DNA from: a virus
Taxonomy: Duplodnaviria; Caudoviricetes
Direction: 5' to 3' (one strand)
Length of the DNA stretch: 56,309 nucleotides
Virus record (IMG/VR): IMGVR_UViG_3300031957_003334
Span: 1-56,309 of that record
A program made the position numbers and the translations under genes. The first letter of the stretch is position 1; every line of letters starts with the position of its first letter. The notes under the pieces are model-generated. The model had not been told where the DNA came from, did no database searches, and was given only the letters and a program-made list of their open reading frames with translations. Shown here piece by piece: positions 35,490-54,868 of this stretch.

Positions 35490-35746
35490 TTCTTGTAAAC
35501 TCTCTTTTTCAAGTTCTTTTTCAAACCAGATAGGGCGTGACGATTATCCTCAATGTGTTCTTCTACAACTTCCCCAGTTTTTTTGTTTTTTGTTTGATTT
35601 TTTTTGTTTATTTTTATAGGGGACATAATCTTCTTAAGCGAACCAGAAGTTTCACATTTTTCACAATCCGTAAGCGTGTCACGATATGAGTGCGTTTTTT
35701 CAAGCACTATATCACAACTTATACACCTGTAGGAATATCGAGGCAT
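35486..35746 (-). CDS. FmdB-family zinc-ribbon protein
   Basis: MPRYSYRCISC...CEKC...LKKIMS pattern. Confidence 0.8.
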   Translation of the reverse strand: MPRYSYRCISCDIVLEKTHSYRDTLTDCEKCETSGSLKKIMSPIKINKKNQTKNKKTGEVVEEHIEDNRHALSGLKKNLKKRVYKK

Positions 35747-35943
35747 TATTCAGTCTCAAAGACTGGCTTCGTATTATTTGTATTCAATTCAAAGGCTGGT
35801 GGATTAGTCACAATGATTTCAGAAGTATTGTCATCTACTTCAAGGTTCCAGTCTTTTAACAATTCTGTAATATCTGTTTGTTCCGCCAAACACTTTTGCA
35901 GAGTCATCAGGAGTGCCCCGACTGCTTGATTAGATAATTTCAT
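35746..35943 (-). CDS. Hypothetical phage protein
   Basis: 65 aa, coupled to both neighbours (1 nt gap and TAATG overlap). Confidence 0.55.
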   Translation of the reverse strand: MKLSNQAVGALLMTLQKCLAEQTDITELLKDWNLEVDDNTSEIIVTNPPAFELNTNNTKPVFETE

Positions 35944-35944
35944 T

Positions 35945-36349
35945 TTATTCCTCCAATAGGTATTTTTGAACTAAAGTGTGGATAGAACCATCAACAATGT
36001 TCTTCCACGAATCATCCTCATTGATAATTTTTTCCCTGATACTTGTCGCTGAAATAAATCCTATGTCCTTGGGTGGTACATGTTCATTGATTGCATACCC
36101 AACCCCTCTTCCATAGTTTACGCTGGAAATATCTGGGATAGCCATAACGACAACATCTTGGTCTCTATAGACTTGCTCAATCATTTCAATAGTTTGTTCT
36201 GTGGTGAAGGGGTTTTTCTCATCGGGCGGAATATCTCGAACAGCAATAAGAACAGGGTCGCCCTCGGATAGCCTTTGTTCTATTAGCCATTTATGCCCAT
36301 CATGAAAAGGTTGCCACCTTCCCACAAACATTGCTCTTTTAGTAGTCAT
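35945..36349 (-). CDS. HxGH-superfamily (cytidyltransferase-like) nucleotidyltransferase
   Basis: GRWQPFHDGH and ISATSIR motifs in 134 aa. Confidence 0.8.
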   Translation of the reverse strand: MTTKRAMFVGRWQPFHDGHKWLIEQRLSEGDPVLIAVRDIPPDEKNPFTTEQTIEMIEQVYRDQDVVVMAIPDISSVNYGRGVGYAINEHVPPKDIGFISATSIREKIINEDDSWKNIVDGSIHTLVQKYLLEE

Positions 36350-37292
36350 TTCTTTCTTCTCCTAAGATATCGGTAAGTGTCTTTTTCCAAGTTTTAAATG
36401 TATATCCTCGATCATCAATATAGATGTCAGCAGGTATTTTGAAATTAGATATTTCATCAAAATAGTGGAGCATATCATTGTCCTCAAGCCACTTCTCAAT
36501 AACAACAGCGGGTCTGGATGACATAACCACAAGACGCTTACCAGCGAGTTTTAACTTTTCGAAGGACTCTCTGGCATTTTCCATTGGCTCATCATAGGCA
36601 TTGAACAGACCCTTAAAACCTTGACTATATTTGTGGATAACTCCATCAAAATCTACAGCGATAGTTCTTTTCTTTTCGAGCACGTTAACTTCATTTACAC
36701 TTGAAAAATAATTATTTTTTTCCAAATAATCAACAATCATTGTAGCGCATTGTTCAATTGTATTAAGCGACGTATTCACAGTTATTTCCGGATCATACGG
36801 TTGTTCATAAGGAGCACTAACTCCTGTAAAACTTGGTATTTCGCCAGACCTAGCCTTTTTATAAAGTCCTTTAGGGTCACGCTCCTCGCAAACTTCTAGC
36901 GGCGCATCCACATAAACCTCTATAAAACAATCACCGATTACTTCACGAGCGGCGAGCCGGTCCTCAATATAAGGGGATATAAACGCTGTACAAACAATAT
37001 CGCCGGATTGCGCAAAAAGATTAGCAACTTCAGAAATACGGCGAATATTTTCTTTTCTATCCTCTGGTTTAAATCCTAAGTCTTTATTAAGACCCATTCT
37101 TACGTTGTCTCCATCCAACAGGTGTGTCTTGCACTTCTTCCTATGAAGCAGGACTTCAACAGCGTTTGCCAGCGTTGATTTACCTGAACCGGACAGTCCA
37201 GTAAACCACAACACAGCGGGCTTATGCGTGTTTTGCAGGATCTTGTCTTTAAGGGATACCGAAGTTTTGTGATAATGCAGATTTTTGTTCAT
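36339..37292 (-). CDS. cysC: Adenylyl-sulfate (APS) kinase fused to a C-terminal HAD-like domain
   Basis: WFTGLSGSGKST, LDGDNVR, RKENIRR, RDPKGLYKKAR and FTGVSAPYE. C-terminal IAVDFDGVI...MSSR...K..ADIYIDDR. Start moved to ATG 37292 (ATGA overlap). Confidence 0.9.
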   Translation of the reverse strand: MNKNLHYHKTSVSLKDKILQNTHKPAVLWFTGLSGSGKSTLANAVEVLLHRKKCKTHLLDGDNVRMGLNKDLGFKPEDRKENIRRISEVANLFAQSGDIVCTAFISPYIEDRLAAREVIGDCFIEVYVDAPLEVCEERDPKGLYKKARSGEIPSFTGVSAPYEQPYDPEITVNTSLNTIEQCATMIVDYLEKNNYFSSVNEVNVLEKKRTIAVDFDGVIHKYSQGFKGLFNAYDEPMENARESFEKLKLAGKRLVVMSSRPAVVIEKWLEDNDMLHYFDEISNFKIPADIYIDDRGYTFKTWKKTLTDILGEERNDY

Positions 37293-37498
37293 TTTTTTTC
37301 TACCCCGAACTTGGATAGATTGTACCATAATCTTTCATGTCCGTAATATAAAATTATTTTAGTTATCAATTCTACAGCACCTATCTTAACTCCAACCATA
37401 GGATCTCCAGAGATTAGCCAACCCAAAAGAATCGTGTCGAGCGTACCAACTATGCGCCAACTTATTGCTTTTGCTAAATGTCTTTTACGAGCAACCAT
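37289..37498 (-). CDS. DUF2061 small membrane protein
   Basis: KRHLAKAISWRIVGTLDT...E.ITKIILYYGHERLW signature. Start moved to ATG 37498 (TAATG overlap). Confidence 0.85.
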   Translation of the reverse strand: MVARKRHLAKAISWRIVGTLDTILLGWLISGDPMVGVKIGAVELITKIILYYGHERLWYNLSKFGVEKK

Positions 37499-38331
37499 TA
37501 TTCTGTAACCGCCCTTCCTTTTAAATTTTCCCAATCTTTCTGCGGTCTTACCTCAAGATTTTTTTCCCAGACCGCACTCATAACCAATGGATTAATATCA
37601 CAGTCTCTCATTACCTTAATGATGGCATTGACATCTTTAGGAAAACAAGATCCCCCAAAACCATACTTTCCATCTGGTCCCGGCGTAGATAAGTGTGTTT
37701 TCCCGATTCTATTGTCATAAAGCGAATACTCCACCACCTTATCATAATCAATGTTTTTTTGTTCGCAGATTTGTCTCATTTCGTTAGCAAAAGAAACCTT
37801 GGTAGCCAAAAAACAATTACAAAAATACTTTACCATTTCTGCTGTTTTTGATCCAGTCTTTAAAATAGGTGTTGACGGGAATCTTTTGCGATACAGATTT
37901 TTAACGATCGTTGTTGCAGGTCGTGGTCCCCCTACTATAATTCTGTCTTGATTTTTAAAGTCTTCAATAAAGTTAGCCTCAGTTAAAAATTCAGGGTTAA
38001 AAACAATTGAGAGGTTTTTGTAATTCAAGGATAGCCGTTCAGTAGTTCCAGGGGGGATAGTTGACTTAATCACAGCAATATGACCTTTAGAGAGGTGGTT
38101 TAGGTCTTTTAACACACTTTCTACAATGCTTGTGTTACATCTACCGTCTTTGTCCATCGGGGTTGGAACACAAACAAAAATAACTTTAGATTTTTTGCAC
38201 AACTCTTCTAGTGTGCCACAAGTAGATTCTTTACTGATATCATAAGTATGAACATTAAATACGCCCTCAAAACCAACTCGCACAGCAGTACCGACAAAGC
38301 CCTGACCTACAACTCCAATGTCATTTTCCAT
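37498..38331 (-). CDS. UDP-glucose/UDP-GlcNAc 6-dehydrogenase family (no C-terminal UDP-binding domain)
   Basis: GQGFVG, CVPTP, KSTIPPGTT, NPEFL, AEMVKY..N.FLATKVSFANE and GFGGSCFPKD. Start moved to MENDI at 38331. Confidence 0.9.
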   Translation of the reverse strand: MENDIGVVGQGFVGTAVRVGFEGVFNVHTYDISKESTCGTLEELCKKSKVIFVCVPTPMDKDGRCNTSIVESVLKDLNHLSKGHIAVIKSTIPPGTTERLSLNYKNLSIVFNPEFLTEANFIEDFKNQDRIIVGGPRPATTIVKNLYRKRFPSTPILKTGSKTAEMVKYFCNCFLATKVSFANEMRQICEQKNIDYDKVVEYSLYDNRIGKTHLSTPGPDGKYGFGGSCFPKDVNAIIKVMRDCDINPLVMSAVWEKNLEVRPQKDWENLKGRAVTE

Positions 38332-39199
38332 CGATCTCTTCCTTAAGTTTTTTAAAACATTGATGAATTCCGTCCACAATATTTACTTCGGTTTCCCAAC
38401 CGATTGATTTTAAAGAACTAGGTTGGGCTTTTGTTTCCATAACATCCCCAGGTCTATCCTCCACATAGTCAAAAACAATATCAGGAAAATATTGCTCAAC
38501 TATTTTTCTCATCTCATTTAAGGAAATATTAGTTCCAGTCCCGGTATCATAAACAGCGCCTGAGAAATTGCCCTTATATTCCATAGCAAAAATATTGGCA
38601 GATACGGCGTCCTTCACATTCAACATATCTCTTCGTTGCTCACCATCACCTGTGATGAATGGATTTTTTCCTTGTCTAATATATTCCATCCAATTTGCCA
38701 CTGCTGTAGCGTATGCTCCCCCCGCTTTTTGGTCCGGCGAATAAACGTTAAAATACCTCAAACAAACTGTATCAATACCATACAGTTTAGAATATAGAGT
38801 TGTTTCTATTTCCGAGGTTAATTTCTGCAATGCATAAGGGCTCTCTGGTCCATCTCCGTTACCCACAACAGAAGAAGAGCTGGAATAAATTACTCTCTTA
38901 CAGCGTGCCTCTCTAGCAAAATCTAACACAACTGAAGATGATACCACATTATTTATCATAGTTGATAGCGGGTTCTCAACACTATATGCCACTCTGGGCC
39001 AACAAGCAAGATGAAAAATTACCTCTGGCTTGAACTTCAAATACTTGTCCCTTTTGCCCGGAGTAAGAATATCTTTGATATCTCCAGAATTTTCATCATC
39101 AAGGTCAATTCCTAAAACTTCATAGCCTTTGTTTTTAAGGGCTGTATAGAGGTGGTTTCCAATATAACCTTTATAGCCAGTTACAAGACATCTAGTCAT
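38321..39199 (-). CDS. NAD-dependent nucleotide-sugar epimerase/dehydratase
   Basis: TGYKGYIG, FHLA, YSSSSS, SPYALQK (YxxxK), LRYFNVY and GDGEQRRD. Confidence 0.9.
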   Translation of the reverse strand: MTRCLVTGYKGYIGNHLYTALKNKGYEVLGIDLDDENSGDIKDILTPGKRDKYLKFKPEVIFHLACWPRVAYSVENPLSTMINNVVSSSVVLDFAREARCKRVIYSSSSSVVGNGDGPESPYALQKLTSEIETTLYSKLYGIDTVCLRYFNVYSPDQKAGGAYATAVANWMEYIRQGKNPFITGDGEQRRDMLNVKDAVSANIFAMEYKGNFSGAVYDTGTGTNISLNEMRKIVEQYFPDIVFDYVEDRPGDVMETKAQPSSLKSIGWETEVNIVDGIHQCFKKLKEEIDGK

Positions 39200-40034
39200 T
39201 TTGTGTTTCCTTTAGGAGTGTTAAAAACATTTTATGTGATTCGTAGGCATCTATAGGAGGGTTATCTCCCAAGAAATATAAAAGCTCTTCCAAGAGAGGA
39301 GAGGATTTTTCCACGAATTTTTCCTCTGTTGAATTTACATATCCCTCAGAGATTGAATATTTCATTACCACCTGTGAAGATAGGTCGGCAACAAGATTGC
39401 AGTTTCTTTGCCTAACACATATTTTACGCTCTTTATAAAACGTTTCATTGCTCCAAATAAAACGAATAATTTCTCCACTTAACATATTAAGTGTTAGACA
39501 AAAAGTGTTCTGATTATTGAGTATATGGGTGCTTTTGACCTCATCGCCCGAATATAGCTCACAAAAAAGATCTAAATCATGGATACCAACGTCCACAAAA
39601 CTACTGACATCCATCCGTGAAACTGGTCGTGCTGAACATCTTATAAAATCAATACTGATTGCTTCTTTCTTATTCCAATTTTGTACAAGGGTTTTAAAAG
39701 AAGGATTAAATCGCTCAACCATCCCAACAGATACTCTTGGGTCTTTCAATAGTTCTATGTTTTGCGGATGTATGACTCCAGGCTTTTCTACTAATATTTT
39801 CCCTCGATAATCACCATCTAATAGCGTCTGTAAATACTCGTCGTGGGTCTCTGTCGGTGAAGCAATGATAATATGAGAAAAATCCTGAACTTCATCAAGA
39901 CTGTTGATTCTTCCTGATATTCCAGACTCAGGAACATAAGGATCATACCATTTAAACCCTTGACCAATCTTATGTAAATATTTTTTATGAAGTGATCCCA
40001 TTTTTCCAGAACCAATCAATAAAACGTTATTCAC
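39192..40034 (-). CDS. Gfo/Idh/MocA-family oxidoreductase (WbpB-like)
   Basis: IGSGKMGSLH, IASPTETH, LVEKP, VGMVERFNP and DVGIHDLD. Start moved to GTG 40034. Confidence 0.85.
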   Translation of the reverse strand: MNNVLLIGSGKMGSLHKKYLHKIGQGFKWYDPYVPESGISGRINSLDEVQDFSHIIIASPTETHDEYLQTLLDGDYRGKILVEKPGVIHPQNIELLKDPRVSVGMVERFNPSFKTLVQNWNKKEAISIDFIRCSARPVSRMDVSSFVDVGIHDLDLFCELYSGDEVKSTHILNNQNTFCLTLNMLSGEIIRFIWSNETFYKERKICVRQRNCNLVADLSSQVVMKYSISEGYVNSTEEKFVEKSSPLLEELLYFLGDNPPIDAYESHKMFLTLLKETQND

Positions 40035-40690
40035 TAGTAGCATTCTCCAGGGTTTATATTATACCACCACACAGGATGTGTTAATACATATATTTTATTA
40101 TGTTTACCTATGTGCTGATGTAAGCACCCCTCTCTCCAATTACAACTACTGTCAGAGATATATTTGTATTCTTCAAATATCTCACCATCATAAGCATCGT
40201 ATAAAACATTTTTGTTGTTTTTCAAATGCTGAATAACACCGGCTTCAACCTTGTTGTTTCTACTGGGCTCGTGGGGACAAATACACCTAAAAGTATTTTT
40301 CCCAAAAACGGTTCTTAGTAAATCTAGAGTATGTTCCATATACTGTATATAAGACTCGGTATCGTGGATATACCTTTCGTAGTGAAGACCTACTTCGTGC
40401 CCCATCTTAAGAATTTTTTTAACTGTGTCTATTCCCTCCCAAGAAAGCAAGTTGTAGTTTCTAGCAGAGATTCTAAAGAAGTATGTTGAAACAACCCCAC
40501 GTCTTTTTTCTAGGGATGCCATATTCATAGCCAAATCTAATTGATGATCAACATCATGTCTCATCATTAGTGTCTTGGTGTGGTTATTTTTACAAAAAGA
40601 GTCAGACATTGTAATAAAAGAATATCCCTGTTCTTTTGCCTGCAATAAACACTCTTCATAGTGTCTTAGGGTAAAATTACATTCGCTCAC
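40034..40690 (-). CDS. Polysaccharide deacetylase-like protein
   Basis: MRHDVD, STYFF, GHEVGLHY, YISDS and LTHPVWW motifs. Confidence 0.7.
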   Translation of the reverse strand: MSECNFTLRHYEECLLQAKEQGYSFITMSDSFCKNNHTKTLMMRHDVDHQLDLAMNMASLEKRRGVVSTYFFRISARNYNLLSWEGIDTVKKILKMGHEVGLHYERYIHDTESYIQYMEHTLDLLRTVFGKNTFRCICPHEPSRNNKVEAGVIQHLKNNKNVLYDAYDGEIFEEYKYISDSSCNWREGCLHQHIGKHNKIYVLTHPVWWYNINPGECY

Positions 40691-41391
40691 AACAGATACT
40701 CCTTTTGATAGTCTTTACATATGGAGTGAAATTGTTCTGGCGTATCGTCACCGTAGATCGATATAAAATCTAGAATGCCAGACTTGCCGGGGTCCAGATC
40801 AATCTCTGCAAGTCCAATGGGTCTATAGTTGTACTCTTCAAGTGATTCAGAACTCATATAATTTGCAGCACCGCTTCCGCTAATATACTTTGTAATATTT
40901 AGAGAATCACACAGGTACCTTATAAGTTCTTCGCCAGATTTTTCACCTAAATTCAGGATATCTGATGATTTTATAGTTTTGGTATTTGTGCCTAAAAAAC
41001 TACAAATTTGATCTACAAGTTTAATATTGACAGAACACAAACTTTCTGTTTCTAGGCAAAGCGCCTCTACATTTTCCAAAATATTCAAAACATTTTTAAA
41101 ACCATCCCTTTTGGACCACTTATGATGAAGTGTTGTTTTTGTTTTTCTGAAAACAGATTTCCAATTCTGGGATATTCTTACTCTATGAATGGGCAAAGAA
41201 CTATCCTTTTTAACAACGGGCATTGTTATGTATGTGTGCTTCTCAGAGTCTAAAGAAACAGAGCACCTATTTGTCCAGCCATTCTTAGAATACTCTACAT
41301 GATCTAAGTGAATATGGAGATCTGCAACGGCAATCTTTACAAAGTAAGGAACCCACGGGAGAAAGTTAGGTTGGTGGATGGAGCCGATCAC
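40687..41391 (-). CDS. wbqC: WbqC-family protein
   Basis: IHQPNFLPW..YF.KI..AD....LD.VEY.K..W.NR and YISG.GA..Y. Start moved to GTG 41391 (GTGA overlap). Confidence 0.85.
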   Translation of the reverse strand: MIGSIHQPNFLPWVPYFVKIAVADLHIHLDHVEYSKNGWTNRCSVSLDSEKHTYITMPVVKKDSSLPIHRVRISQNWKSVFRKTKTTLHHKWSKRDGFKNVLNILENVEALCLETESLCSVNIKLVDQICSFLGTNTKTIKSSDILNLGEKSGEELIRYLCDSLNITKYISGSGAANYMSSESLEEYNYRPIGLAEIDLDPGKSGILDFISIYGDDTPEQFHSICKDYQKEYLL

Positions 41392-42242
41392 TTTTTCATA
41401 TTCCGAATATCTCTTGCTGCCTTTTCTGCATTGGGGCAATCTCCAGTTATCCCAAGTCTTTTATAAGCAGGCTGCTCATAAACAACATTGGGATAATGTC
41501 CGTGAGACTCGTCCCTCATTCCAAGTTCGGCAAGATATGCTTTTTCGTGAATTTTTAAATTCTCTAGTCCTAAAAGGCACAGCGGTTCAGCCAACCTAAA
41601 ATTGAAACCCACATATTCATGGTTATATTTACCAACTTGCCCCTGGTCGCAGATGGAACGTATTTTATCGCCATCCAGCATAGAATTTTCATTAATAGTT
41701 ATCATACCCCCTTCAAACGTAGAAAAGTTCTTTGTCTTGTAGAAACTAAAGCACCCAACATCACCCATAGTTCCTGCCAATTGTCCATCGGGATCCTTGC
41801 AGGGGTAACATTTTTGTTGTCCTGTTTCAAAACAAAAATTACATCTGGCTCCTAAAGCCTGTGCTGTATCTTCAATAACTACCAAATTATGCCTCTTGGC
41901 TACTTCCATTATTTTGGGCATGTCACAAACCCGACCATACAAATGTACTGGTATGATTGCTTTAGTTCTCGGAGTTATGGCTTCTTCTATTTTGTTGGCG
42001 TCTATCAATTTAGTAACGGGATCTATGTCCACAAAAACAGGTGTTGCACCAGCGATAAGAATAGCATTAGAAGTTGCTATAAAAGTAAATGGTGTTGTAA
42101 TAACCTCATCCCCAGGCTTTAAGTCCATAGACCACAAAGGGGCGATCAGCGCACTGGTTCCATTGTTAACCGCAATAGATTGCTTAACTTTAAACCTTTT
42201 TGTAAATTCTTCCTCAAATATTTTTCTAACTATTGCTGGCAT
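41388..42242 (-). CDS. DegT/DnrJ/EryC1/StrS sugar aminotransferase (WbpE-like), shortened
   Basis: NNGTSAL, PGDEVITTPFTFIAT, PVHLYG, EDTAQA, SFYKTKN (PLP lysine), EGG and GFNFRL. Confidence 0.9.
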   Translation of the reverse strand: MPAIVRKIFEEEFTKRFKVKQSIAVNNGTSALIAPLWSMDLKPGDEVITTPFTFIATSNAILIAGATPVFVDIDPVTKLIDANKIEEAITPRTKAIIPVHLYGRVCDMPKIMEVAKRHNLVVIEDTAQALGARCNFCFETGQQKCYPCKDPDGQLAGTMGDVGCFSFYKTKNFSTFEGGMITINENSMLDGDKIRSICDQGQVGKYNHEYVGFNFRLAEPLCLLGLENLKIHEKAYLAELGMRDESHGHYPNVVYEQPAYKRLGITGDCPNAEKAARDIRNMKK

Positions 42243-42699
42243 CTTTTACCTCTCCTTGAATCTTAGCTGGGTTGCCATAAACTAAAGTGTTTTTTGGTAT
42301 ACTTCTAGTGACTACACTGCCGGCACCTACTAAGGATTTAGAACCTATCGTAATTCCACACAAAATCGTGCTGTTTGCCCCAATACTAGCACCTCTACAT
42401 ATTAGAGTTTTACGAAACCGATCTTTCCAATCTCCAACTGCTCTGGGATATATGTCGTTTGTTGTTACAACATTTGGACCGATGAAAACGTCATTTTCAA
42501 CTTTGACACCTTCATATATTAAGGAGTGGTTTTGAATTTTTACATTATCCCCGATGACCACATTTGGACCAATGTATACACCTTCTCCAATCACACAATT
42601 TTTACCGATTTTTGCCCCTTGGCATATATGAGAAAAAGCCCAAATTTTAGTGTTGTTTCCAACTTGTTCTGTTTCTACGATAGCAGTTTGGTGTATCAT
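42226..42699 (-). CDS. Hexapeptide-repeat sugar N-acetyltransferase (WbpD/WlbB-like)
   Basis: IHQTAIV, TKIWAFSHI, VKIQN, FIGPNVVTTNDIYPR, GASIGAN and YGNPAK. Confidence 0.9.
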   Translation of the reverse strand: MIHQTAIVETEQVGNNTKIWAFSHICQGAKIGKNCVIGEGVYIGPNVVIGDNVKIQNHSLIYEGVKVENDVFIGPNVVTTNDIYPRAVGDWKDRFRKTLICRGASIGANSTILCGITIGSKSLVGAGSVVTRSIPKNTLVYGNPAKIQGEVKDASNS

Positions 42700-43442
42700 T
42701 TTCTCTCTCCATTTAGAACTTGATATATTCTTTCTGCCTTCTCAAGACTTACAGGATACGAAAGTTTAACTTTTTTTTGCTGTTCTGTATAGTAAAAAGG
42801 TCTAGGCCACGGAGGGGGAAGAGCCCTTGATAAATTATAGATGTCAATGGGGTTCATATTTTTAGTTATTTCTCCATCTTTATCCGACCTTTTTGAGCAT
42901 TCAAAAATTATTTTTTCTTTGCTTTGTTCCACGGGATGTAAATCGTTGTCTCGATATTTTTTTAAAAACACGTCCCACATTTTACAAGATGTTGTTACCC
43001 CTTTTCTTAAAACATCGTTAGCATCCTCGTCAAATTCTATTTGAAAATCTTTCTGTAAGAAGATCTTTCCCCCGTCTATTTTATTTGTTAGTTCGTGAAT
43101 AGTTACGCCACTAACATTCTCTCCGTTTATTAATTGCCAATTCAAAGCATGGCTTCCAGCATAATCAGGTAGCAACGATCCGTGAAAGTTTATTGATAAA
43201 CGGTGTTTATCTAGAAGCGTACTTTGTATGACCCTGTTATAGTAAAAAGATACTAAAATATCGGCAGAAAATTTAATACACTCTTGTTTAAAATTTTCAA
43301 ACCCCTTGTCTTTGATGCGTGGGTGATTATTAGGATAAACTATTTTGAGAGTGCAATCTTCTTTTAACTTATCAATAAAAGGAAAATAATGCTCATTATT
43401 TTTGGTAAATAAAAGTACTTTTATGGGATCATTTTTAGGCAT
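42696..43442 (-). CDS. N10-formyl-THF-dependent (sugar) formyltransferase
   Basis: INFHGSLLPDYAG, SGVTIH, IDGG and RALPPPWP. Confidence 0.85.
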   Translation of the reverse strand: MPKNDPIKVLLFTKNNEHYFPFIDKLKEDCTLKIVYPNNHPRIKDKGFENFKQECIKFSADILVSFYYNRVIQSTLLDKHRLSINFHGSLLPDYAGSHALNWQLINGENVSGVTIHELTNKIDGGKIFLQKDFQIEFDEDANDVLRKGVTTSCKMWDVFLKKYRDNDLHPVEQSKEKIIFECSKRSDKDGEITKNMNPIDIYNLSRALPPPWPRPFYYTEQQKKVKLSYPVSLEKAERIYQVLNGERK

Positions 43443-44563
43443 CTTTTTAACACATATTCACAATGATCCTCCATTGAATATGATCCCCATTTAAATGTAT
43501 TGATATAATCAGGACTTCTAACTATATCGATACATTTTTTTAGTTGTTTGTTTAAGTCCTGCTGTTTTTCCTCGTCGTAAATTAAACAAGATTCTTGATA
43601 GTAAGATGGTACTGTAACTGGCTTATTGCATAAAGTAATACATTTTGCGGCGATGCTTTCTCCCAATGTTCTTGGGTACCCTTTTGGCTGACCATATACT
43701 CGCATATCCATTGGTATAACAGAAATTTTTGAAAGGTATTTAACTTCACGAGCAAATTTTTTGTTGACTTGTCCAAGTATAAAGTAATCTATTTTTTTCT
43801 GCTCGCATATGCTTATTATGTCTTTTACATATTCGGCGTCCCGCAAAGGACCCATAAAAACTAAGACATAATCACTACACAATGTTTCATCGAGGTCTTT
43901 TATCATTTGTAATTGATTCTTTACATACCACATTGTCCCGCTGACTAAAATGATGTTTTCTTTTTTGTGTTTCGATAAAAATTCTACACACTGTTCTACG
44001 TAATCCGGACTTGCCGGAGGACACATATCTTCTTCTTCGAAATAGTAATCGGCATTTTTCAAGTTAGGTGCATAGGACATTGTTTTTATATTGACTCTGC
44101 AACCGCTTTTCTCCCAAACTTTATTATCATACGGTCTGCTCTTCATCGTATTAAAAACCGCTGATCTTCCGATGATAATATCATACGCTTCATTTAATGT
44201 TTCTATGGGGTTGATTTTTGTTTCTTGTATTTCATACCTGAATACATTTGTACCCCCTTTATCGTAGGTAAAATGTATCTTTGAATTTGGCAATACCTTA
44301 GAAGCATACAGCGGCAAACCCAAGGCTTCCATCTCTGCGTCCAGTGGGGAAAAGTGAGCAAATAACAGGTTGTATTTATGAAGGGATATTGTCTCTGCTG
44401 TGATACTGTTTAATAAATCAGAAACACAAAAAGAGTTGCAACCAAGCCTCTCTTGATTATATTGGCGAGGAGTTAATCTAAGTTCTGGTGAGTTTTTCCA
44501 ATGATGTAAGGCGGCATACTTATTAATGAACGCCGATAAATTATTAGAAGTGTTTATTCTCAT
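43421..44563 (-). CDS. Divergent GT-B glycosyltransferase-like protein
   Basis: C-terminal half GTMWYVKNQ...FMGP...GYPRTLGESIA resembles the GT4 donor-binding domain. Confidence 0.5.
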   Translation of the reverse strand: MRINTSNNLSAFINKYAALHHWKNSPELRLTPRQYNQERLGCNSFCVSDLLNSITAETISLHKYNLLFAHFSPLDAEMEALGLPLYASKVLPNSKIHFTYDKGGTNVFRYEIQETKINPIETLNEAYDIIIGRSAVFNTMKSRPYDNKVWEKSGCRVNIKTMSYAPNLKNADYYFEEEDMCPPASPDYVEQCVEFLSKHKKENIILVSGTMWYVKNQLQMIKDLDETLCSDYVLVFMGPLRDAEYVKDIISICEQKKIDYFILGQVNKKFAREVKYLSKISVIPMDMRVYGQPKGYPRTLGESIAAKCITLCNKPVTVPSYYQESCLIYDEEKQQDLNKQLKKCIDIVRSPDYINTFKWGSYSMEDHCEYVLKRCLKMIP

Positions 44564-45318
44564 ATTGTTGTGAAATATCTCTTAAAAATATTCTTTGTAT
44601 CATCAGACAGCATAATTTCCTTTGCCCTGCGTAGGTCATCCATATCGGTCTCAGAATCATTCTTGTTTAAGGTTTTTTGAATATGGAGTAACCATTCGGG
44701 ATCTGTCTCTAATCCAAGCCAACTGTTTATGTTCTTGGTGGTTATGCTAAAATCGTCTAAAAGGTCCTCATAATAAACCCTTAAATACAAATCAGGGTCA
44801 ATATAATCTTCCACAGTAGAAGCAAGAATAGAATCATCTAAAACTTTTTTACAAGCCTTTTCATAGGTTTCAAATCCGTGAGATTTCATATAAGAACGAG
44901 CAGCAACAGCAGGGTTTCTAATCAGATGCAAAAAATAGAATTTATTTTTCGTGACAAAATCTAGGAATTCTTGCTTATGTTCCCTAAAGATAGAAGTGGT
45001 GCCGCCGGCTTTTTTGTCTCCTATTACCATGATTTCTTTTTTATTGAATTCTGGTAGTTCTGACAAGTGTCCCATCTCTTTCCATCTTTTTTGGTACTGG
45101 GACATTTTATACCCTGTGTTTTCTAATCCACTCTCAAACTGCCTTGTTGCCTCTTCATATAGATGACTAAAAGCCAAATCAGTAGAACACTTTTGTTTTA
45201 CAACTTTGTCTAAAAATCGAGACTCGTTGGAGATCAAACAATTTGGGTGATAGTTTAGTACTTGACCGAGGAAGGTGCTTCCCGTTCTTCCGCTCCCTAT
45301 AAAAAACAAGTACTTCAT
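44560..45318 (-). CDS. PAPS-dependent sulfotransferase
   Basis: IGSGRTGSTFL (5'-PSB loop), LNYHP, IRNP....RS (3'-PB motif) and YEDLL. Confidence 0.8.
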   Translation of the reverse strand: MKYLFFIGSGRTGSTFLGQVLNYHPNCLISNESRFLDKVVKQKCSTDLAFSHLYEEATRQFESGLENTGYKMSQYQKRWKEMGHLSELPEFNKKEIMVIGDKKAGGTTSIFREHKQEFLDFVTKNKFYFLHLIRNPAVAARSYMKSHGFETYEKACKKVLDDSILASTVEDYIDPDLYLRVYYEDLLDDFSITTKNINSWLGLETDPEWLLHIQKTLNKNDSETDMDDLRRAKEIMLSDDTKNIFKRYFTTI

Positions 45319-46056
45319 TTAATACTCCATAAAATTGTTTTTACAAAACATCAGCGCCTCTTCCAAAGATCCTACCTTGTACTGTCCTTGGTTTATTTTG
45401 GGGTCAGCGTGCATATGATATATTCTTGGTTTTAGATGAGATTCTCCGAATTCATGTTTGAATTTGTTTTGTTTTTCCCTATTGCCTCTACTTCGGATGT
45501 TATATTCAACAGGAAGTATATAATACCTCATATTTGAATGCCACAGTGCCGTTCTAAAAGTTGGTTGCTCGTAAGGCCATCGTGAAAAATAATGATAAAA
45601 TAAATCCCTCCACGATTGGAAAAAATCCATAACTGGCTTTGATTTTTTAAATACCATAACACCAGGGTTAACTTCAGGGAAAGCGTATGGAATCGCAGCA
45701 TATTCCGGTATTTTAGCAGAGATACTTTCTCTTTTTCTGGCTAAATCGTGACAAATGGCAAAATCAAATTTCTCTAGTATACCAAACATCTCCTCTATAT
45801 TGTGATCAACAATAGTATCAGTATCTAGAAAGATAGTTTCATCGTAAGGTGTTTGATCTACATAATCTACTTTTGCTCGTATATGATTAACACTAATAAC
45901 TCGACAGTCATCTACAAATTCTGAATCTACTAACCTGTCGCTATAAAAGGTTACTGGAAGATCTGGGCAGTTCTTTTTGACAGATTCCGCAGAGATTAAT
46001 GCCTCTTTAATAAACGGCTCGTTGAAAGCAATATATAATACTCCTCTAGATGTCAT
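45319..46056 (-). CDS. GT-A glycosyltransferase (GT8-like)
   Basis: GVLYIA, EALISAES, TPYDETIFLDTDT (DxD), NPGV, EQP.FR and LPVEYN. Confidence 0.75.
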   Translation of the reverse strand: MTSRGVLYIAFNEPFIKEALISAESVKKNCPDLPVTFYSDRLVDSEFVDDCRVISVNHIRAKVDYVDQTPYDETIFLDTDTIVDHNIEEMFGILEKFDFAICHDLARKRESISAKIPEYAAIPYAFPEVNPGVMVFKKSKPVMDFFQSWRDLFYHYFSRWPYEQPTFRTALWHSNMRYYILPVEYNIRSRGNREKQNKFKHEFGESHLKPRIYHMHADPKINQGQYKVGSLEEALMFCKNNFMEY

Positions 46057-47041
46057 TCCGAATCTCCTTTATATTATCATACAGTTTTTTTGCCCATTTT
46101 ATAGGGTCATATTCTTGGTCAAATTTATTTTTAGCGGCTGTTGCTATTTTATTTCTTTTGTTTGCACTCGACAGAGATCTTAAAGCATTCAACCAACTGT
46201 CTGTATTATGGGCTACATAGCCGCAATTTTCGTCACCAAGAATATGAAAATTACTTGGTGTAATATCTGCCACAACAGGGATCCCTACTTGGTGAAAAAC
46301 AAACGATCTTCCTGCATTAGACTTATTTTTAAACCTAATAATGAAGTCTGTTTCATATAGTCCCATTTCTGGGTTTGTTTTTATACCCATAAACTGGTTT
46401 GGGGTTATAGATGTTATATTGGGGACTAACCCAATGTCGCACTTCTTTATTTCTTCTACAATAGTATCTTTGTTCCAGTGAGATAGTTGTATATTTTTTA
46501 TTCGTGGAACGCCAATAGACCACCCATTATAGCCTGGGGATGTTATTACCTTCAATTCAAAAGGCTGCTCTTTTTCAAAGGATTCAAGTGCTAACGATAA
46601 ATACGGTGAAAATTTACTTAAATGAGTAAAACTACCATGATACCCAAGAGTTAAAATTTCTTTGTCTGTATGTTTTTTAATCTCAATATTTTGAAACATA
46701 TCTTCAATCAAAGGGTAATAAAATACATTTGGATAACGAGAAAGACTTATTTTTTCTTCTAAGGATCCTACGATTACAAAATCACACAAGATGTTTTCTT
46801 TATCCGCTGCAAGATTTGTAACTCCTATAATTTTATCTGGATATTTTCTCTTTAAAATGTCTGCCCACTGCCAATCATTCTTGGATAAAATGATTACGTC
46901 TGCCTCTTCTATGTTGTCAAGAGATTCAATAAATTGTGCATCTATTCCTGCAATTTTAAAGTAGTTACATAAATCATTACACCAAATACGATAAGAACCA
47001 ACCTTAATATCCCTCACGGTACTGTAAAAACGAATATTCAT
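46046..47041 (-). CDS. GT-B glycosyltransferase-like protein
   Basis: GSYRI, LGYHGS, CDIGLVP, KSN, GIPVVA and W..AL..L. Confidence 0.6.
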   Translation of the reverse strand: MNIRFYSTVRDIKVGSYRIWCNDLCNYFKIAGIDAQFIESLDNIEEADVIILSKNDWQWADILKRKYPDKIIGVTNLAADKENILCDFVIVGSLEEKISLSRYPNVFYYPLIEDMFQNIEIKKHTDKEILTLGYHGSFTHLSKFSPYLSLALESFEKEQPFELKVITSPGYNGWSIGVPRIKNIQLSHWNKDTIVEEIKKCDIGLVPNITSITPNQFMGIKTNPEMGLYETDFIIRFKNKSNAGRSFVFHQVGIPVVADITPSNFHILGDENCGYVAHNTDSWLNALRSLSSANKRNKIATAAKNKFDQEYDPIKWAKKLYDNIKEIRNDI

Positions 47042-47044
47042 ATC

Positions 47045-48286
47045 TTACATACGACCAAAAATAATCACTTGATGAGTGGGATTTCCAGATGCTGTTTTTC
47101 CAACATTGTGGACTCGATAGTTTTTCTTCATCTTACAAATTCTTTCAATATCATAATAGCATCCAAATCTTTCATCATAATCATCTAAAACCCAGATAGG
47201 GTTTTCGGATTGGAATTGTTTAAGGTTGATTATGTCTGCTATAACGGCTCCCTTATCGTGAGAGGCATCAATATAAAATAAATCTACATCTTTAACGTTG
47301 TGTGATTCAAGATGTTCTTTCAGGTCTTTTGAAGTCCCGCTAACAAAAGTTGTATTGTTTTGAAATTTTTCAACATATTTTTCATTTCTAACATCTCTAA
47401 TATCAGCACTCCAAACATGCCCTTCTGTATCTGACAAACCCTCAGCAAAAGTGTAAAATTGCCAACCTTCGGCTGTTCCCATTTCTACTATTTTTTTACA
47501 CCCTGCTATCTTAGCCAAAGATGACAAATAAAATCCACGTTTTGGCAGAATCTCTAAACACTCTTTTGCGGTTTCTTCAGTAAGTTTATAATTTTTTGTT
47601 TTTTGTATCTGTATGAGAAGATTAATATCATCCCATATTTGTTTATATTCTGAAGGAACTGTGAGTTCTTTTATTTTTCCAACTTTTTCATATGTTTTTG
47701 AAAGTAAATCGTTTTTTTCCAGGACTATTTCCCAGTTCATACCAAAAACATTTCGAGGTATTGATTCGTTTTTGATACATAAACTCTGATGAAACAAGGG
47801 CAACAGATCATGATCTGGCTTATTAACATAAAATTCTGTATATTCATCTTGGTCTACGTCTATCTGAAACTGGAAGAGTGCCTTGCCTCCAACTTTTAAC
47901 ACTCTTTCAATTTCAGATGCTTTTTTTTCAGGGTAAAGCGAATGATCATAGACGTTGCTAAATACAAAATCAAATTCGCCGTCTTTATATTGAAGATTGT
48001 GCATATCCCCCTCGACGACGTGCGGAGGACACGGGACAATATCTATACCACAAGCGTCTACGCCCAATTCTTTTAATGCTACCACTTCTTGACCAGTTCT
48101 AGCACCTATACATAGTGCTCTTTTGTTTCCCGTGTCAAGACCGTGGCGTACAAACAACTCCTTAAATCCCTGTAACTTGAGGTTCCATTCTTCGTTGAGC
48201 CATTTTTGGCGACGGACTGGATCTTCTGTTTTTGTTTTTTGAAACCTTATATACTCTTCATAAGATTTATGCCTACCTGTCGTCAT
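47045..48286 (-). CDS. Two-domain class I SAM methyltransferase
   Basis: Domain 1: LCIGARTGQE, GID, GDMH, FDFVFSN, RVLKVGG. Domain 2 (Methyltransf_24-like): IVEMGTAEG, DLFYIDASH, LDDY. Confidence 0.8.
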   Translation of the reverse strand: MTTGRHKSYEEYIRFQKTKTEDPVRRQKWLNEEWNLKLQGFKELFVRHGLDTGNKRALCIGARTGQEVVALKELGVDACGIDIVPCPPHVVEGDMHNLQYKDGEFDFVFSNVYDHSLYPEKKASEIERVLKVGGKALFQFQIDVDQDEYTEFYVNKPDHDLLPLFHQSLCIKNESIPRNVFGMNWEIVLEKNDLLSKTYEKVGKIKELTVPSEYKQIWDDINLLIQIQKTKNYKLTEETAKECLEILPKRGFYLSSLAKIAGCKKIVEMGTAEGWQFYTFAEGLSDTEGHVWSADIRDVRNEKYVEKFQNNTTFVSGTSKDLKEHLESHNVKDVDLFYIDASHDKGAVIADIINLKQFQSENPIWVLDDYDERFGCYYDIERICKMKKNYRVHNVGKTASGNPTHQVIIFGRM

Positions 48287-49184
48287 TTGTTTGCTCCGTT
48301 ATAAATTTCAAATACGCTTGAGATACTTTTTTCATATCATACTCACTATCATAAGAATTTTTAAGTTTTTGTGAAAAGTCTATCTGTGGGGGAGAATAGA
48401 GACGAACAGGCTCTAGGTCCCATTCATCTTCTTTTATGACAACGGCACCAATCCCAGCAATCTCTTTTGTTCCTCCAGAAGAGGAGCAAATAACTTGCGC
48501 ACCGCACGCCCTAGCATCAACTACAACATTTGGACAATGATCAAGCCACGCTAAATGGATAAAATAATCAGATGCCTTCAATATAGTTAAAACATTTTCA
48601 TATTTTAAATTCCCTAAATATCTTATCCTAGGGTCATCAATTGGTTTGTCATCGGTTTTCCCCATTACAAACAAAACGTCATTATCGTGACTGTGTTCTA
48701 GGAAATACCTTATATTCTCTTGTAGTCTTTTGTGGGGTCTCCAATGAGAAGCACAGGACCATATTTTGTTGTGTTTATTTTTTATGTGTTCTGGGACATC
48801 TGGAATTGATTGTATCAGCTCAAGACTGGCACCATTGTGAATAATCGTGCTGCTCTTATGTTCGCCAAAATATTTGGTCACTAATCTTTTATTAAAATCA
48901 CTCTGAAAGATTACACCATCTGCAACCTTATACGTTTCTAATATTGGTTTGTTTTGTTGGGTATAGTTTTGTTCTGAATTAAAATATATCCCATCTAGTC
49001 TTTGGAATAGTTTTCCAGATGATGGAACTTTGATTTTCTGAATAAACGCCAACGTTGCCACTGGGTCCTGTAAGGCGTTGAATGTAATTCCCTGGTTCCT
49101 CAGGCAATCAAAAAGTTTCCTTCCAAAACAATTGGGACCGGAGTTGCTCGTAAGATCTACGTTCTGGAGATGAATGTTTGTCAT
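48273..49184 (-). CDS. GT4-family glycosyltransferase
   Basis: SGP..F, QRLDG, ADGVIFQS, IIHNG, HKRL and DHCPNVVVDARACG...GGTKE. Confidence 0.8.
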   Translation of the reverse strand: MTNIHLQNVDLTSNSGPNCFGRKLFDCLRNQGITFNALQDPVATLAFIQKIKVPSSGKLFQRLDGIYFNSEQNYTQQNKPILETYKVADGVIFQSDFNKRLVTKYFGEHKSSTIIHNGASLELIQSIPDVPEHIKNKHNKIWSCASHWRPHKRLQENIRYFLEHSHDNDVLFVMGKTDDKPIDDPRIRYLGNLKYENVLTILKASDYFIHLAWLDHCPNVVVDARACGAQVICSSSGGTKEIAGIGAVVIKEDEWDLEPVRLYSPPQIDFSQKLKNSYDSEYDMKKVSQAYLKFITEQTNDDR

Positions 49185-53321: not shown

Positions 53322-53332
53322 AATTGTTCCTC

Positions 53333-54196: not shown

Positions 54197-54868
54197 TTAT
54201 TTATTATAGAGATCTTTGTGTATTTCGTCAATTTTTAAATACAAAAATGGGCTAATTTTTTTCAATGAATCTTGCTTGTCTAAATAGTATGCCTCAAAAC
54301 CAGTAGCAAAATATTCCCGTAATGATACCGCAGCATACGGTCTAATAAAGAGACCAGAAGTGAGCATTTTTAACATACTTTTTCCAACCCTTTTGTACAA
54401 GAAATTGTCAAAAGCCGTAGAAAACCTAACGTCACTAAAATCAAATTCATCAGTCCAATATCCCTCGGACCTAATTTCATATTCTAATTGCTTTCTTTTT
54501 TTGAGAAATTCTTTCTTAATACTTTCGTCGCCATATATCTTTTCAAGATGGAGTGTCTCAAGATGGTGTGCAAATTCGTGGACGATATCATCCAAAATGT
54601 CCTGATGATTGTCTTGTTGATTTGTTATATGGAGATAACCATCTCGGTAGAGAGCGTTAACTTCTCTTTCGTCGAAGTCTTTCAGGTGGTTGATTTTTAT
54701 ACCTTTCACTCCTTTGAAATAATGAGAAGGAAAGTTTTTCTCTAAAGCCTTGAGTATATGGTCTAAATTTATTCCATTAGGTAAAAGATCTATCTCTTCT
54801 ACTTCAATCCCCCCAAGACGAAATCTTTTTGGGCTGTTTTCCATTTTTTCTAAAATATATTCTCTCAT
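54197..54868 (-). CDS. Zincin-like HExxH metalloprotease
   Basis: IVHEFAHHLE followed by YAAVSLREYFATGFEAY (third-ligand E pattern as in lethal-factor-like zincins). Confidence 0.65.
   Translation of the reverse strand: MREYILEKMENSPKRFRLGGIEVEEIDLLPNGINLDHILKALEKNFPSHYFKGVKGIKINHLKDFDEREVNALYRDGYLHITNQQDNHQDILDDIVHEFAHHLETLHLEKIYGDESIKKEFLKKRKQLEYEIRSEGYWTDEFDFSDVRFSTAFDNFLYKRVGKSMLKMLTSGLFIRPYAAVSLREYFATGFEAYYLDKQDSLKKISPFLYLKIDEIHKDLYNK

What the first reader, a model, noticed from the sequence alone, without database searches (positions are those of the whole stretch)
35945..37498. Compact PAPS module with a possible minimal, undescribed ATP sulfurylase
Seen: DUF2061, CysC(-HAD) and a 134 aa HxGH nucleotidyltransferase are translationally coupled, and a sulfotransferase lies in the same operon (44560..45318). 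No Sat or CysDN is present in the window. Established: PAPS synthesis needs ATP sulfurylase and then APS kinase; Sat-type sulfurylases belong to the HIGH/HxGH nucleotidyltransferase superfamily; DUF2061 often neighbours cys genes. Inference: the small GRWQPFHDGH protein is a stripped-down sulfate adenylyltransferase supplying APS, rather than a cytidylyltransferase or NMNAT.
Basis: partly seen in the sequence, partly recalled or inferred. Interest (0 to 1): 0.75.

Follow-up and report, generated by a model that had tools for sequence, protein, structure and literature searches.

The report
Likely third kind of ATP sulfurylase
A 134-residue enzyme beside the APS kinase gene of a marine phage belongs to a large unstudied family that probably activates sulfate, in place of the two known ATP sulfurylases, in phages, archaea and abundant ocean bacteria.

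Summary
On the minus strand, DUF2061 (37289-37498), CysC-HAD (36339-37292) and a 134-aa HxGH nucleotidyltransferase, here "NT" (35945-36349), overlap start to stop. A sulfotransferase lies in the same gap-free gene array. The record holds no Sat or CysD.

- **Fusions:** NT is fused to APS kinase in both orders: 112 of 120 longer homologs, and 52 of 150 representatives of 50%-identity clusters.
- **Viral neighbourhoods:** 31 of 33 close viral loci have cysC next to NT, despite shuffled gene order.
- **Dadabacteria-type phylum (120 genomes):** 78 have NT, 18 Sat and 15 CysD, with no overlap. 74 of the 78 NT genomes have CysC. Five of five checked also have CysH, sulfite reductase, NadD, CoaD and RibF.
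- **Halobacteria:** five genomes have a CysC-NT fusion and no Sat. Four have plain CysC with Sat just upstream.
- **SAR11:** Sat is found in 6 of 151 genomes. NT sits beside aprBA in 9 of 61 loci.

NT is closest to NadM-type NMNAT and to PPAT, but about 30 residues of NadM are replaced by a conserved YGRxVGY loop. It is not a member of the Sat family. I found no paper describing it. Confidence that it is an ATP sulfurylase: about 0.7.

The parts
35945..36349 (-). NT: a 134-aa minimal HxGH (HIGH-type) nucleotidyltransferase, proposed to be an ATP sulfurylase that makes APS
   Evidence: PF01467 scores 35.7 bits. The best NCBIfam hit is NadM-type NMNAT at 61.3 bits, below its cut-off of 127. The AlphaFold2 model has mean pLDDT 96.1. 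Family-conserved residues are G10 R11 H16 G18 H19 R38 P47 P72 D73 G80 R81 V83 G84 Y85 I99 S100 T102 R105.
36699..37292 (-). APS kinase (CysC) domain of the CysC-HAD protein. Start taken at the ATG in the ATGA overlap with DUF2061.
   Evidence: PF01583 scores 222.5 bits. TIGR00455 scores 254.2 bits against a cut-off of 138.7. Junction read.
36339..36698 (-). C-terminal cap-less HAD phosphatase domain fused to CysC. Substrate unknown; a PAP 3'-phosphatase or a pyrophosphatase is my guess.
   Evidence: Invariant D16 F17 D18 G19 V20 ... R62 K87 D95 in 52 aligned sequences. Model pLDDT 89.3. The best fold match is the uncharacterised BT_0820 (2obb), TM 0.69. HAD is present as a domain or a separate gene in 14 of 33 close viral NT loci. 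A natural HAD-NT fusion exists, P0122.
37289..37498 (-). DUF2061 small predicted membrane protein, first gene of the coupled trio
   Evidence: PF09834 scores 76.6 bits. Present in 13 of 33 close viral NT loci. Natural DUF2061-NT fusion P0067.
44560..45318 (-). Sulfotransferase, the presumed consumer of PAPS
   Evidence: PF13469 scores 51.3 bits against a cut-off of 27. Same strand, in a gap-free gene array.
37498..53366 (-). Context: a glycan biosynthesis and modification cluster. It holds a UDP-glucose-dehydrogenase-like gene, an epimerase, a GFO/IDH/MocA oxidoreductase, WbqC, a DegT aminotransferase, a hexapeptide acyltransferase, a formyltransferase, several glycosyltransferases (GT1, GT2, GT8-like) and a methyltransferase.
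   Evidence: Pfam and PHROG hits
35746..35943 (-). 65-aa ORF 1 nt downstream of NT, no family found

Best explanation
NT is a sulfate adenylyltransferase (ATP sulfurylase) of a new, minimal type. It is derived from NadM/PPAT-like adenylyltransferases, not from Sat or CysD.

**Proposed pathway in the phage**
1. NT makes APS from ATP and sulfate.
2. The translationally coupled CysC domain phosphorylates the 3'-OH of APS to give PAPS.
3. The sulfotransferase at 44560-45318 uses PAPS to sulfate a glycan built by the adjacent cluster.
4. The HAD domain may remove PAP or pyrophosphate, and DUF2061 may tether the module to the membrane.

**Shown here:** the genes, their coupling, their family memberships, and the genomic linkage of the NT family to APS metabolism.

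**Inferred:**
- The catalytic activity.
- The roles of R38 and of the G80-R81-x-V-G84-Y85 loop as the sulfate site.
- The roles of HAD and DUF2061.
- The glycan target.
For: 1. **Fusions.** Of the 120 listed homologs longer than 235 aa, 109 are CysC-NT and 3 are NT-CysC. Of the 150 best representatives of 50%-identity clusters, 40 are CysC-NT and 12 are NT-CysC. A FastTree of 131 NT domains needs 25 fused/unfused changes (shuffled labels give a mean of 40.6 and a minimum of 32) and 7 changes of orientation. Single fusions also exist with DUF2061, a HAD domain and a Sulfotransfer_2 domain.
2. **Neighbourhood.** 31 of 33 viral loci with NT at 68% identity or more carry cysC within about 2.2 kb in several gene orders. 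A CysC-type kinase lies in 144 of 159 NT loci.
3. **Displacement, replicate 1.** In the phylum holding the Dadabacteria-labelled MAGs (120 genomes), 78 have strong NT, 18 have Sat and 15 have CysD, with no overlap. CysC is present in 74 of the 78 NT genomes and 15 of the 18 Sat genomes. Several NT genomes are single-contig chromosomes.
4. **Pathway complete except the first step.** Five of five NT genomes checked have CysH-type PAPS_reduct and NIR_SIR sulfite reductase, and no true AprA.
5. **No housekeeping role left over.** The same five have NadD at 159-186 bits against a cut-off of 112, and three further PF01467 matches besides NT, which by size I read as CoaD, NadD and RibF. NT is therefore not needed for NAD, CoA or FAD.
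6. **Displacement, replicate 2.** Among 151 sampled Halobacteria, five have a CysC-NT fusion and none of these has Sat. Four have plain CysC and all four have Sat immediately upstream. None of the nine has a true CysD.
7. **Other lineages.** Five candidate-phyla-radiation (CPR) genomes, one Woesearchaeota genome and *Halocatena pleomorpha* carry NT/CysC fusions without Sat or CysD.
8. **Related phages.** Five related viral records (CheckV 71-100%) have neither Sat nor a PAPS_reduct-fold gene.
9. **SAR11.** The cluster short kinase-NT-TENA-like-U263-AprB-AprA lies in 9 of 61 held loci. AprA is present in 5 of 5 NT-positive and 0 of 5 NT-negative genomes, which I picked by hand. One paper notes that most SAR11 lack ATP sulfurylase (passage read).
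10. **Structure.** NT is an adenylyltransferase-type fold, closest to PPAT and NMNAT with query-normalised TM-scores (TMq) of about 0.7. About 30 residues of NadM (roughly 77-108 of MJ0541) are replaced by a short loop carrying the family-specific G80 R81 G84 Y85, and R38 is also family-specific.
Against: - There is no biochemical evidence of any kind.
- The closest sequence and fold relatives are NMNAT and PPAT. No Sat chain appears among the roughly 40 top Foldseek rows printed, to rank 50. The only PAPSS hit by sequence has E = 0.11.
- The phyletic exclusion follows clades, so it reflects few independent events.
- The tools gave no completeness values for the cellular genomes.
- Three CysC genomes in the phylum (G046, G053, G103) have none of NT, Sat or CysD.
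- Exclusion fails in places. 5 of the 6 Sat-bearing SAR11 genomes also have NT. A Nitrospinaceae MAG and a Thermoplasmatota MAG have CysD as well as NT.
- In the Dadabacteria-type genomes NT sits among housekeeping genes, next to a class-I glutamine amidotransferase, not among sulfur genes.
- A phage could simply take APS from its host.
- One NT fusion partner is a cupin/mannose-6-phosphate-isomerase-like domain (P0123), which hints at sugar chemistry.
Confidence: 0.7

Rival explanations
1. NT acts on APS or PAPS but is not an ATP sulfurylase. It could be an ADP-forming APS:phosphate adenylyltransferase, an APS-hydrolysing or APS-editing enzyme, or a non-catalytic APS-binding partner of CysC.
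For: All the linkage evidence shows association with APS-handling enzymes, not the direction or nature of the reaction. In SAR11, NT lies beside aprBA, where APS is consumed rather than made.
Against: Genomes with CysC, CysH and sulfite reductase but no Sat, CysD or AprA still need a source of APS, and NT is the gene that tracks that gap. The same holds in Halobacteria. The HxGH and ISxTxxR motifs, which bind NTP in this superfamily by established knowledge, are nearly invariant. That argues for catalysis with ATP.
Confidence: 0.12
2. NT is a nucleotidyltransferase that activates a phosphorylated sugar, polyol or amine for the glycan cluster, as TagD, LicC or HldE domain II do. It is linked to CysC only because both serve glycan decoration.
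For: NT lies at the end of a roughly 17-kb glycan cluster. PF01467 is the only Pfam family above its cut-off. Its size resembles TagD, which I recall as about 130 aa. One fusion is to a cupin/MPI-like domain, P0123.
Against: The conserved partner across phages, CPR bacteria, archaea and SAR11 is an APS-kinase-type protein, not glycan genes. In Dadabacteria-type genomes and in SAR11 the neighbourhood is not glycan-related. The profile hit to glycerol-3-phosphate cytidylyltransferase is only E = 0.12, against 6.6e-18 for NMNAT. This reading would not explain the exclusion with Sat.
Confidence: 0.06
3. NT is a shortened NadM-type NMN adenylyltransferase used for NAD salvage during infection.
For: The best named matches are NMNAT families (NF002243 at 61.3 bits, TIGR01527 at 50.6 bits) and the archaeal NMNAT structure 1f9a (E = 6.6e-18). 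Phage NadM-Nudix genes give partial hits.
Against: The scores are far below the curated cut-offs of 127 and 181 bits, and the match covers only the N-terminal ~90 residues. About 30 residues of NadM are missing. No NadV, Nudix or other NAD gene lies beside NT in the window. Five of five NT genomes checked already have NadD. NAD salvage gives no reason for fusion to CysC in both orders.
Confidence: 0.04

Closest known systems
Sat-type homo-oligomeric ATP sulfurylase (Pfam PF01747), including the bifunctional Sat-CysC / PAPS synthases
   Same: The proposed reaction is the same. NT has the same functional partner (APS kinase) and the same habit of fusing to CysC in either order. It occupies the same genomic slot: Sat lies upstream of CysC in four Halobacteria, while five others have a CysC-NT fusion. 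By established knowledge, both belong to the broad HUP / HIGH-motif nucleotidyltransferase superfamily.
   Different: NT gives no PF01747 match and has no PUA-like N-domain. It has 134 aa, where I recall about 380-400 aa for Sat. Its motif is GRWQPFHDGH rather than the QxRNPxHxxH that I recall for Sat. No Sat chain appears among the top Foldseek rows printed.
CysDN heterodimeric, GTP-driven ATP sulfurylase
   Same: The proposed product (APS) is the same. The two are mutually exclusive in the Dadabacteria-type phylum: 78 NT genomes, 15 CysD genomes, none with both.
   Different: A different fold family (PAPS_reduct / ATP pyrophosphatase). No GTPase subunit is associated with NT.
NadM-type archaeal NMN adenylyltransferase (TIGR01527; PDB 1f9a, 1ej2)
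   Same: This is the closest relative by sequence and fold. It shares GRxQPFHxGH, NPFT and ISxTxxR.
   Different: Scores fall below the family cut-offs. About 30 residues are missing and replaced by the conserved YGRxVGY loop, and R38 is new. The genomic context is APS metabolism, not NAD metabolism.
PPAT (CoaD) followed by dephospho-CoA kinase (CoaE)
   Same: The best fold matches include PPAT, with TMq 0.71-0.74. The logic is parallel: a small adenylyltransferase makes an adenylylated product whose ribose 3'-OH is then phosphorylated by a P-loop kinase. This analogy is my own.
   Different: The acceptor would be free sulfate rather than 4'-phosphopantetheine. The five genomes checked have a separate CoaD-sized PF01467 protein.

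Membership tests
Sat ATP sulfurylase (PF01747) | Match to the ATP-sulfurylase catalytic domain profile | tested here: not met
   hmmscan at E <= 0.01 lists only PF01467, PF05636 and PF08218 for NT. The own-record search for PF01747 finds nothing.
Sat ATP sulfurylase (PF01747) | Fold closest to Sat catalytic domains | tested here: not met
   The top Foldseek PDB matches printed (about 40 rows, to rank 50) are PPAT, NMNAT and NadM, with no Sat. The profile hit to the PAPSS1 Sat domain (2qjf) has E = 0.11.
Sat ATP sulfurylase (function, not family) | Catalyses ATP + sulfate <-> APS + PPi | not testable with these tools
   Only genomic inference is available.
HIGH-motif (HxGH) nucleotidyltransferases, PF01467 CTP_transf_like | Profile match above the gathering score, plus the HxGH and ISxTxxR motifs | tested here: met
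   35.7 bits against a cut-off of 21. H16-x-G18-H19 and I99-S100-x-T102-x-x-R105 are conserved in 86-98% of 131 sequences.
NadM-type NMNAT (NF002243 / TIGR01527) | Score above the curated cut-off over the full length | tested here: not met
   61.3 bits against 127, and 50.6 bits against 181.2. Only residues 4-92 align. About 30 residues of NadM are absent.
APS kinase CysC (TIGR00455) for the neighbouring gene | Equivalog-level score, with P-loop and LDGDxxR | tested here: met
   254.2 bits against 138.7. G32, G37, K38, D60, D62 and R65 are invariant in alignment A4.
DUF2061 (PF09834) | Profile match | tested here: met
   76.6 bits against 23.1
HAD phosphatase superfamily for the CysC C-terminal domain | Motif I DxDx(T/V), motif II S/T, motif III K, motif IV DD; Rossmannoid fold | tested here: met
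   D16-F-D18-G-V20, K87 and D95-D96 are invariant or nearly so. The fold matches cap-less HADs. Pfam HAD families score below their cut-offs.

The most novel reading that the evidence does not exclude
The whole mini-NT family, not only the phage and CysC-fused branch, is a third class of ATP sulfurylase. All subfamilies share R38 and the YGRxVGY loop.
- With a full or shortened APS-kinase partner, it forms the smallest known PAPS synthase in phages, CPR bacteria, DPANN archaea and haloarchaea.
- It is the sole sulfate-activating enzyme for assimilation in the Dadabacteria-type phylum.
- In SAR11 it is the long-missing enzyme that turns the APS made by AprBA into sulfate and ATP. That would close the sulfite-oxidation pathway of the ocean's most abundant bacteria.
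Probability: 0.5. Interest if true: 0.92.

Novelty: new variant of a known kind. Interest (0 to 1): 0.85.

Why it matters
Textbooks describe two unrelated enzymes for sulfate activation, Sat and CysDN.

A third, 130-residue solution would change how sulfur pathways are read from genomes. Genomes now scored as lacking sulfate activation could in fact activate sulfate. These include the Dadabacteria-type phylum, some haloarchaea, CPR and DPANN lineages, most SAR11, and many marine phages.

It would give a candidate for the gap noted in print for SAR11: AprBA is present, yet 'most SAR11 lack ATP sulfurylase'.

It would mean that viral cysC 'auxiliary metabolic genes' often come as a self-sufficient PAPS module.

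It would also offer a very small enzyme for PAPS regeneration in biocatalysis.

Tried and rejected
- **Complex prediction.** Complex prediction of the window's CysC domain with NT returned 'no answer', score 0.00. This is no evidence either way.
- **Literature.** Nine of my ten successful searches looked for such an enzyme and found no description. The terms were: APS kinase with cytidylyltransferase and fusion; DUF2061; Dadabacteria with sulfate; 'novel/alternative ATP sulfurylase' phrases; phage sulfotransferase; haloarchaea with PAPS; 'lack ATP sulfurylase' phrases; SAR11 with aprA; and Pelagibacter with APS reductase. The tenth sought NMNAT structure papers. The library omits most subscription journals, and supplements were closed.
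- **Papers checked by passage only.** PMC2211403 and the preprint 'Pelagibacter, resolved' say nothing about NT. PMC8305020 has no passage on sulfate activation.
- **Isolated phages.** No close relative: tblastn gives at most 42.5% identity. The phage lineage and host stay unknown, with only 26-31% identity to Flavobacterium and Microcystis phage proteins.
- **HAD domain.** No informative solved relative by sequence (best E = 0.02). By fold, the best match is an uncharacterised protein, so its substrate stays open.
- **ESM Atlas.** It only names the clusters 'cytidyltransferase family protein'.
- **Active-site geometry.** I could not check where R38 and R81 sit in the model, because model coordinates are not exposed.
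- **SAR11 exclusion.** I expected NT and Sat to exclude each other in SAR11. They do not: 5 of the 6 Sat genomes have NT.
Full report
**1. What is in the window**

The window is an IMG/VR viral record of 56,309 bases that CheckV rates 31% complete. It carries:
- a baseplate-wedge homolog;
- three very large ORFs of 1402, 1817 and 3176 aa;
- a PhoH-like gene;
- a minus-strand glycan gene array about 17 kb long.

The finding lies at the downstream end of that array.
- **DUF2061:** 37289-37498 from its ATG; PF09834 scores 76.6 bits.
- **CysC-HAD:** 36339-37292 from the ATG in the overlap. PF01583 scores 222.5 bits. TIGR00455 scores 254.2 bits against a cut-off of 138.7. A C-terminal HAD-like domain follows.
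- **NT:** 35945-36349, 134 aa, motif GRWQPFHDGH; PF01467 scores 35.7 bits.

The junctions are TAATG, ATGA and an 11-nt overlap. A Sulfotransfer_3 protein lies at 44560-45318 in the same unbroken array. Neither Sat (PF01747) nor the CysD/CysH fold (PF01507) occurs in the record.

**2. What NT resembles**

By sequence its nearest named relatives are NadM-type NMN adenylyltransferases. The match covers only residues 4-92, and the scores are far below the curated cut-offs: 61.3 against 127, and 50.6 against 181.

A profile of 72 family members finds the archaeal NMNAT MJ0541 (1f9a) at E = 6.6e-18, then PPATs. The alignment jumps from chain residue 76 to 109 across only four profile positions. So about 30 residues of NadM are absent.

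The AlphaFold2 model is confident (pLDDT 96.1). Its best Foldseek matches are PPAT and NMNAT, with query-normalised TM-scores (TMq) of about 0.7. No Sat chain appears among the roughly 40 top rows printed, to rank 50. NT is therefore an adenylyltransferase-type minimal HIGH-motif enzyme and is not a member of the Sat family.

Across 131 diverse domains the conserved positions are G10 R11, H16 G18 H19, R38, P47, P72 D73, G80 R81 V83 G84 Y85, and I99 S100 T102 R105. Every subfamily I aligned shares them, including the SAR11, freshwater-viral and Xylella/Stenotrophomonas-phage forms.
- R38 and the YGRxVGY loop have no counterpart in the NadM alignment.
- That they form a small oxyanion site next to the ATP alpha-phosphate is my inference. 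I could not inspect model coordinates.

**3. Linkage to APS kinase**

The family is large.
- 2594 near-length homologs, mostly from marine metagenomes.
- 1658 clusters at 50% identity with E <= 1e-3, of which 481 have E <= 1e-10.

Fusions to APS kinase dominate the longer forms.
- Among the 120 listed homologs longer than 235 aa, 109 are CysC-NT, 3 are NT-CysC and 1 is HAD-NT. The other 7 have other or no partners.
- Among the 150 best cluster representatives, 40 are CysC-NT, 12 are NT-CysC, 1 is NT-DUF2061 and 97 are NT alone.
- A quick FastTree of the NT domains needs 25 fused/unfused changes, against a shuffled mean of 40.6 and minimum of 32. It needs 7 changes of orientation. This is rough: branch support was not assessed, and partial metagenomic ORFs may count as 'alone'.
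- Single fusions also join NT to DUF2061 (P0067), to a HAD domain like the window's (P0122), to a Sulfotransfer_2 domain (P0168) and to a cupin (P0123).

Gene neighbourhoods agree.
- In viral contigs, 31 of 33 loci with NT at 68% identity or more have cysC within about 2.2 kb on the same strand.
  - The gene orders differ: DUF2061-CysC(HAD)-NT, NT-CysC, CysC-HAD-NT and CysC-DUF2061-NT.
  - Of the two exceptions, one NT sits at a contig edge and one has only HAD upstream.
  - Several of these loci are near-duplicates of each other.
- When a shortened APS-kinase-like protein is counted as well, a kinase lies in 144 of 159 NT loci. This protein has about 135 aa and keeps the P-loop, D62, R65, R79, P107 and R112, but has a cut-down lid.

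**4. Displacement of Sat and CysDN**

*(a) The Dadabacteria-type phylum.* I searched the 120 genomes of the phylum that holds the MAGs titled Dadabacteria or Thermodesulfobacteriota.

| Gene | Genomes of 120 |
|---|---|
| NT, strong match (132.9 bits or more) | 78 |
| Sat | 18 |
| CysD | 15 |
| None of the three | 9 |

No genome has NT together with Sat or CysD.

CysC (E <= 1e-20) is present in 92 genomes:
- 74 of the 78 NT genomes;
- 15 of the 18 Sat genomes;
- 0 of the 15 CysD genomes;
- three further genomes (G046, G053, G103).

I checked five NT genomes whose matches all lie on contig C1 at coordinates up to megabases.
- They have CysH-type PAPS_reduct (147-157 bits) and a NIR_SIR sulfite reductase.
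- They have no true AprA.
- They have NadD above its cut-off, plus other PF01467 proteins that by size I read as CoaD and RibF.
- So assimilatory sulfate reduction is complete except for its first enzyme. NT has no NAD, CoA or FAD role left to fill.

*(b) Halobacteria.* I sampled 151 genomes.
- Five carry a CysC-NT fusion and none of these has Sat.
- Four carry plain CysC, and each has Sat immediately upstream.
- None of the nine has a true CysD (best 34.9 bits against a cut-off of 396.6).

*(c) Other lineages.* Five candidate-phyla-radiation (CPR) genomes, one Woesearchaeota genome and *Halocatena pleomorpha* have NT/CysC fusions and neither Sat nor CysD.

*(d) Related phages.* Five related large viral records (CheckV 92, 71, 100, 95 and 83%) have no Sat and no PAPS_reduct-fold gene.

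**5. SAR11**

I sampled 151 Pelagibacteraceae genomes filtered at 80% completeness or more.
- NT (about 41-45% identical to the window's) is found in 95 of 151.
- Sat is found in 6 of 151. Five of those six also have NT, so there is no exclusion here.

Other evidence still ties NT to APS in SAR11.
- In 9 of 61 held SAR11 NT loci the order is short kinase-NT-TENA-like-263-aa unknown-AprB-AprA-116-aa unknown-(TauE).
- AprA was found in 5 of 5 NT-positive and 0 of 5 NT-negative genomes. I picked these by hand, and the result is probably confounded by clade.
- A preprint passage states that 'most SAR11 lack ATP sulfurylase' although they use AprAB.

In other SAR11 loci the kinase-NT pair sits among unrelated metabolic genes.

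**6. Reading**

The simplest account of fusion, adjacency, displacement and the aprBA context is that NT interconverts ATP + sulfate and APS + PPi.

In the phage it would feed CysC and then the sulfotransferase, giving a self-contained sulfation module for the glycan made by the neighbouring genes.

The HAD domain is a cap-less HAD whose best fold match is uncharacterised (2obb, TM 0.69). A role as a PAP phosphatase or pyrophosphatase is a guess. The role of DUF2061 is unknown.

**7. Weaknesses**
- There is no assay.
- The phyletic pattern follows clades.
- The tools gave no completeness values for the cellular genomes.
- NT in the Dadabacteria-type genomes is not next to sulfur genes.
- NT coexists with Sat or CysD in some genomes.
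- A phage could draw APS from its host.

**8. Novelty**

I found no description of such an enzyme in the searches I could run. Databases call the family 'cytidyltransferase-like', or wrongly 'adenylylsulfate kinase'. The paper library is partial, and supplements were closed.

I rate NT as a new variant of a known kind: a known reaction carried out by a new enzyme family.

**9. Confidence**

| Reading | Confidence |
|---|---|
| ATP sulfurylase | 0.70 |
| Other APS-linked role | 0.12 |
| Glycan-precursor nucleotidyltransferase | 0.06 |
| NMNAT | 0.04 |

Noticed in passing
L163:5895-11723 (genome handle G353); also L020, L023, L025, L027, L032, L035, L037, L075, L076: A conserved SAR11 cluster: short APS-kinase-like gene, NT, TENA/THI-4-like gene, 263-aa unknown, AprB, AprA, 116-aa unknown, TauE/SafE. 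NT sits where sat would be expected in an apr cluster.
   Followed up: partly
L001:4160-5336 (Xylella phage Bacata); L002:4593-5324 (Stenotrophomonas phage DLP_6): Isolated siphophages encode a short-kinase-NT fusion of 243-246 aa, annotated 'kinase' or 'adenylylsulfate kinase'. In Bacata it lies directly after a NADAR-domain gene. It keeps all the NT family residues.
   Followed up: partly
L124-L162 (viral contigs): A subfamily of NTs of 116-121 aa, at most 49% identical to the window's. All 39 loci carry a short APS-kinase-like gene, and in 32 it lies within 300 nt of NT. Neither full-length CysC nor DUF2061 was detected there.
   Followed up: partly
window 7987-12195, 13144-22674, 26421-31874: Three very large minus-strand ORFs (1402, 3176 and 1817 aa) near a baseplate-wedge homolog at 24179-25972. 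They are presumably tail-fibre or host-recognition proteins. I did not scan them against any family library.
   Followed up: no
window 37498-38379 and 41388-42242: The UDP-glucose-dehydrogenase-like ORF (293 aa) matches only part of the N-terminal domain and the central domain. The DegT aminotransferase ORF (284 aa) matches profile positions 28-236 of 360. Both look shortened relative to their families.
   Followed up: no
P0204 and P0237 (metagenomic proteins): NT fused behind a Cys-rich N-terminal region of about 190-240 aa with repeated CxC...C patterns. This is possibly a nuclease-like or zinc-binding module. No Pfam family is on record.
   Followed up: no
window 54865-56172: A PhoH-like gene (phrog_2765, 369.7 bits) lies just upstream of the glycan cluster on the same strand.
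   Followed up: no
L003:7078-7833 and L007:8505-9251: In two Dadabacteria-type genomes a class-I glutamine amidotransferase lies next to NT, on either side. Whether this link is functional is unknown.
   Followed up: no
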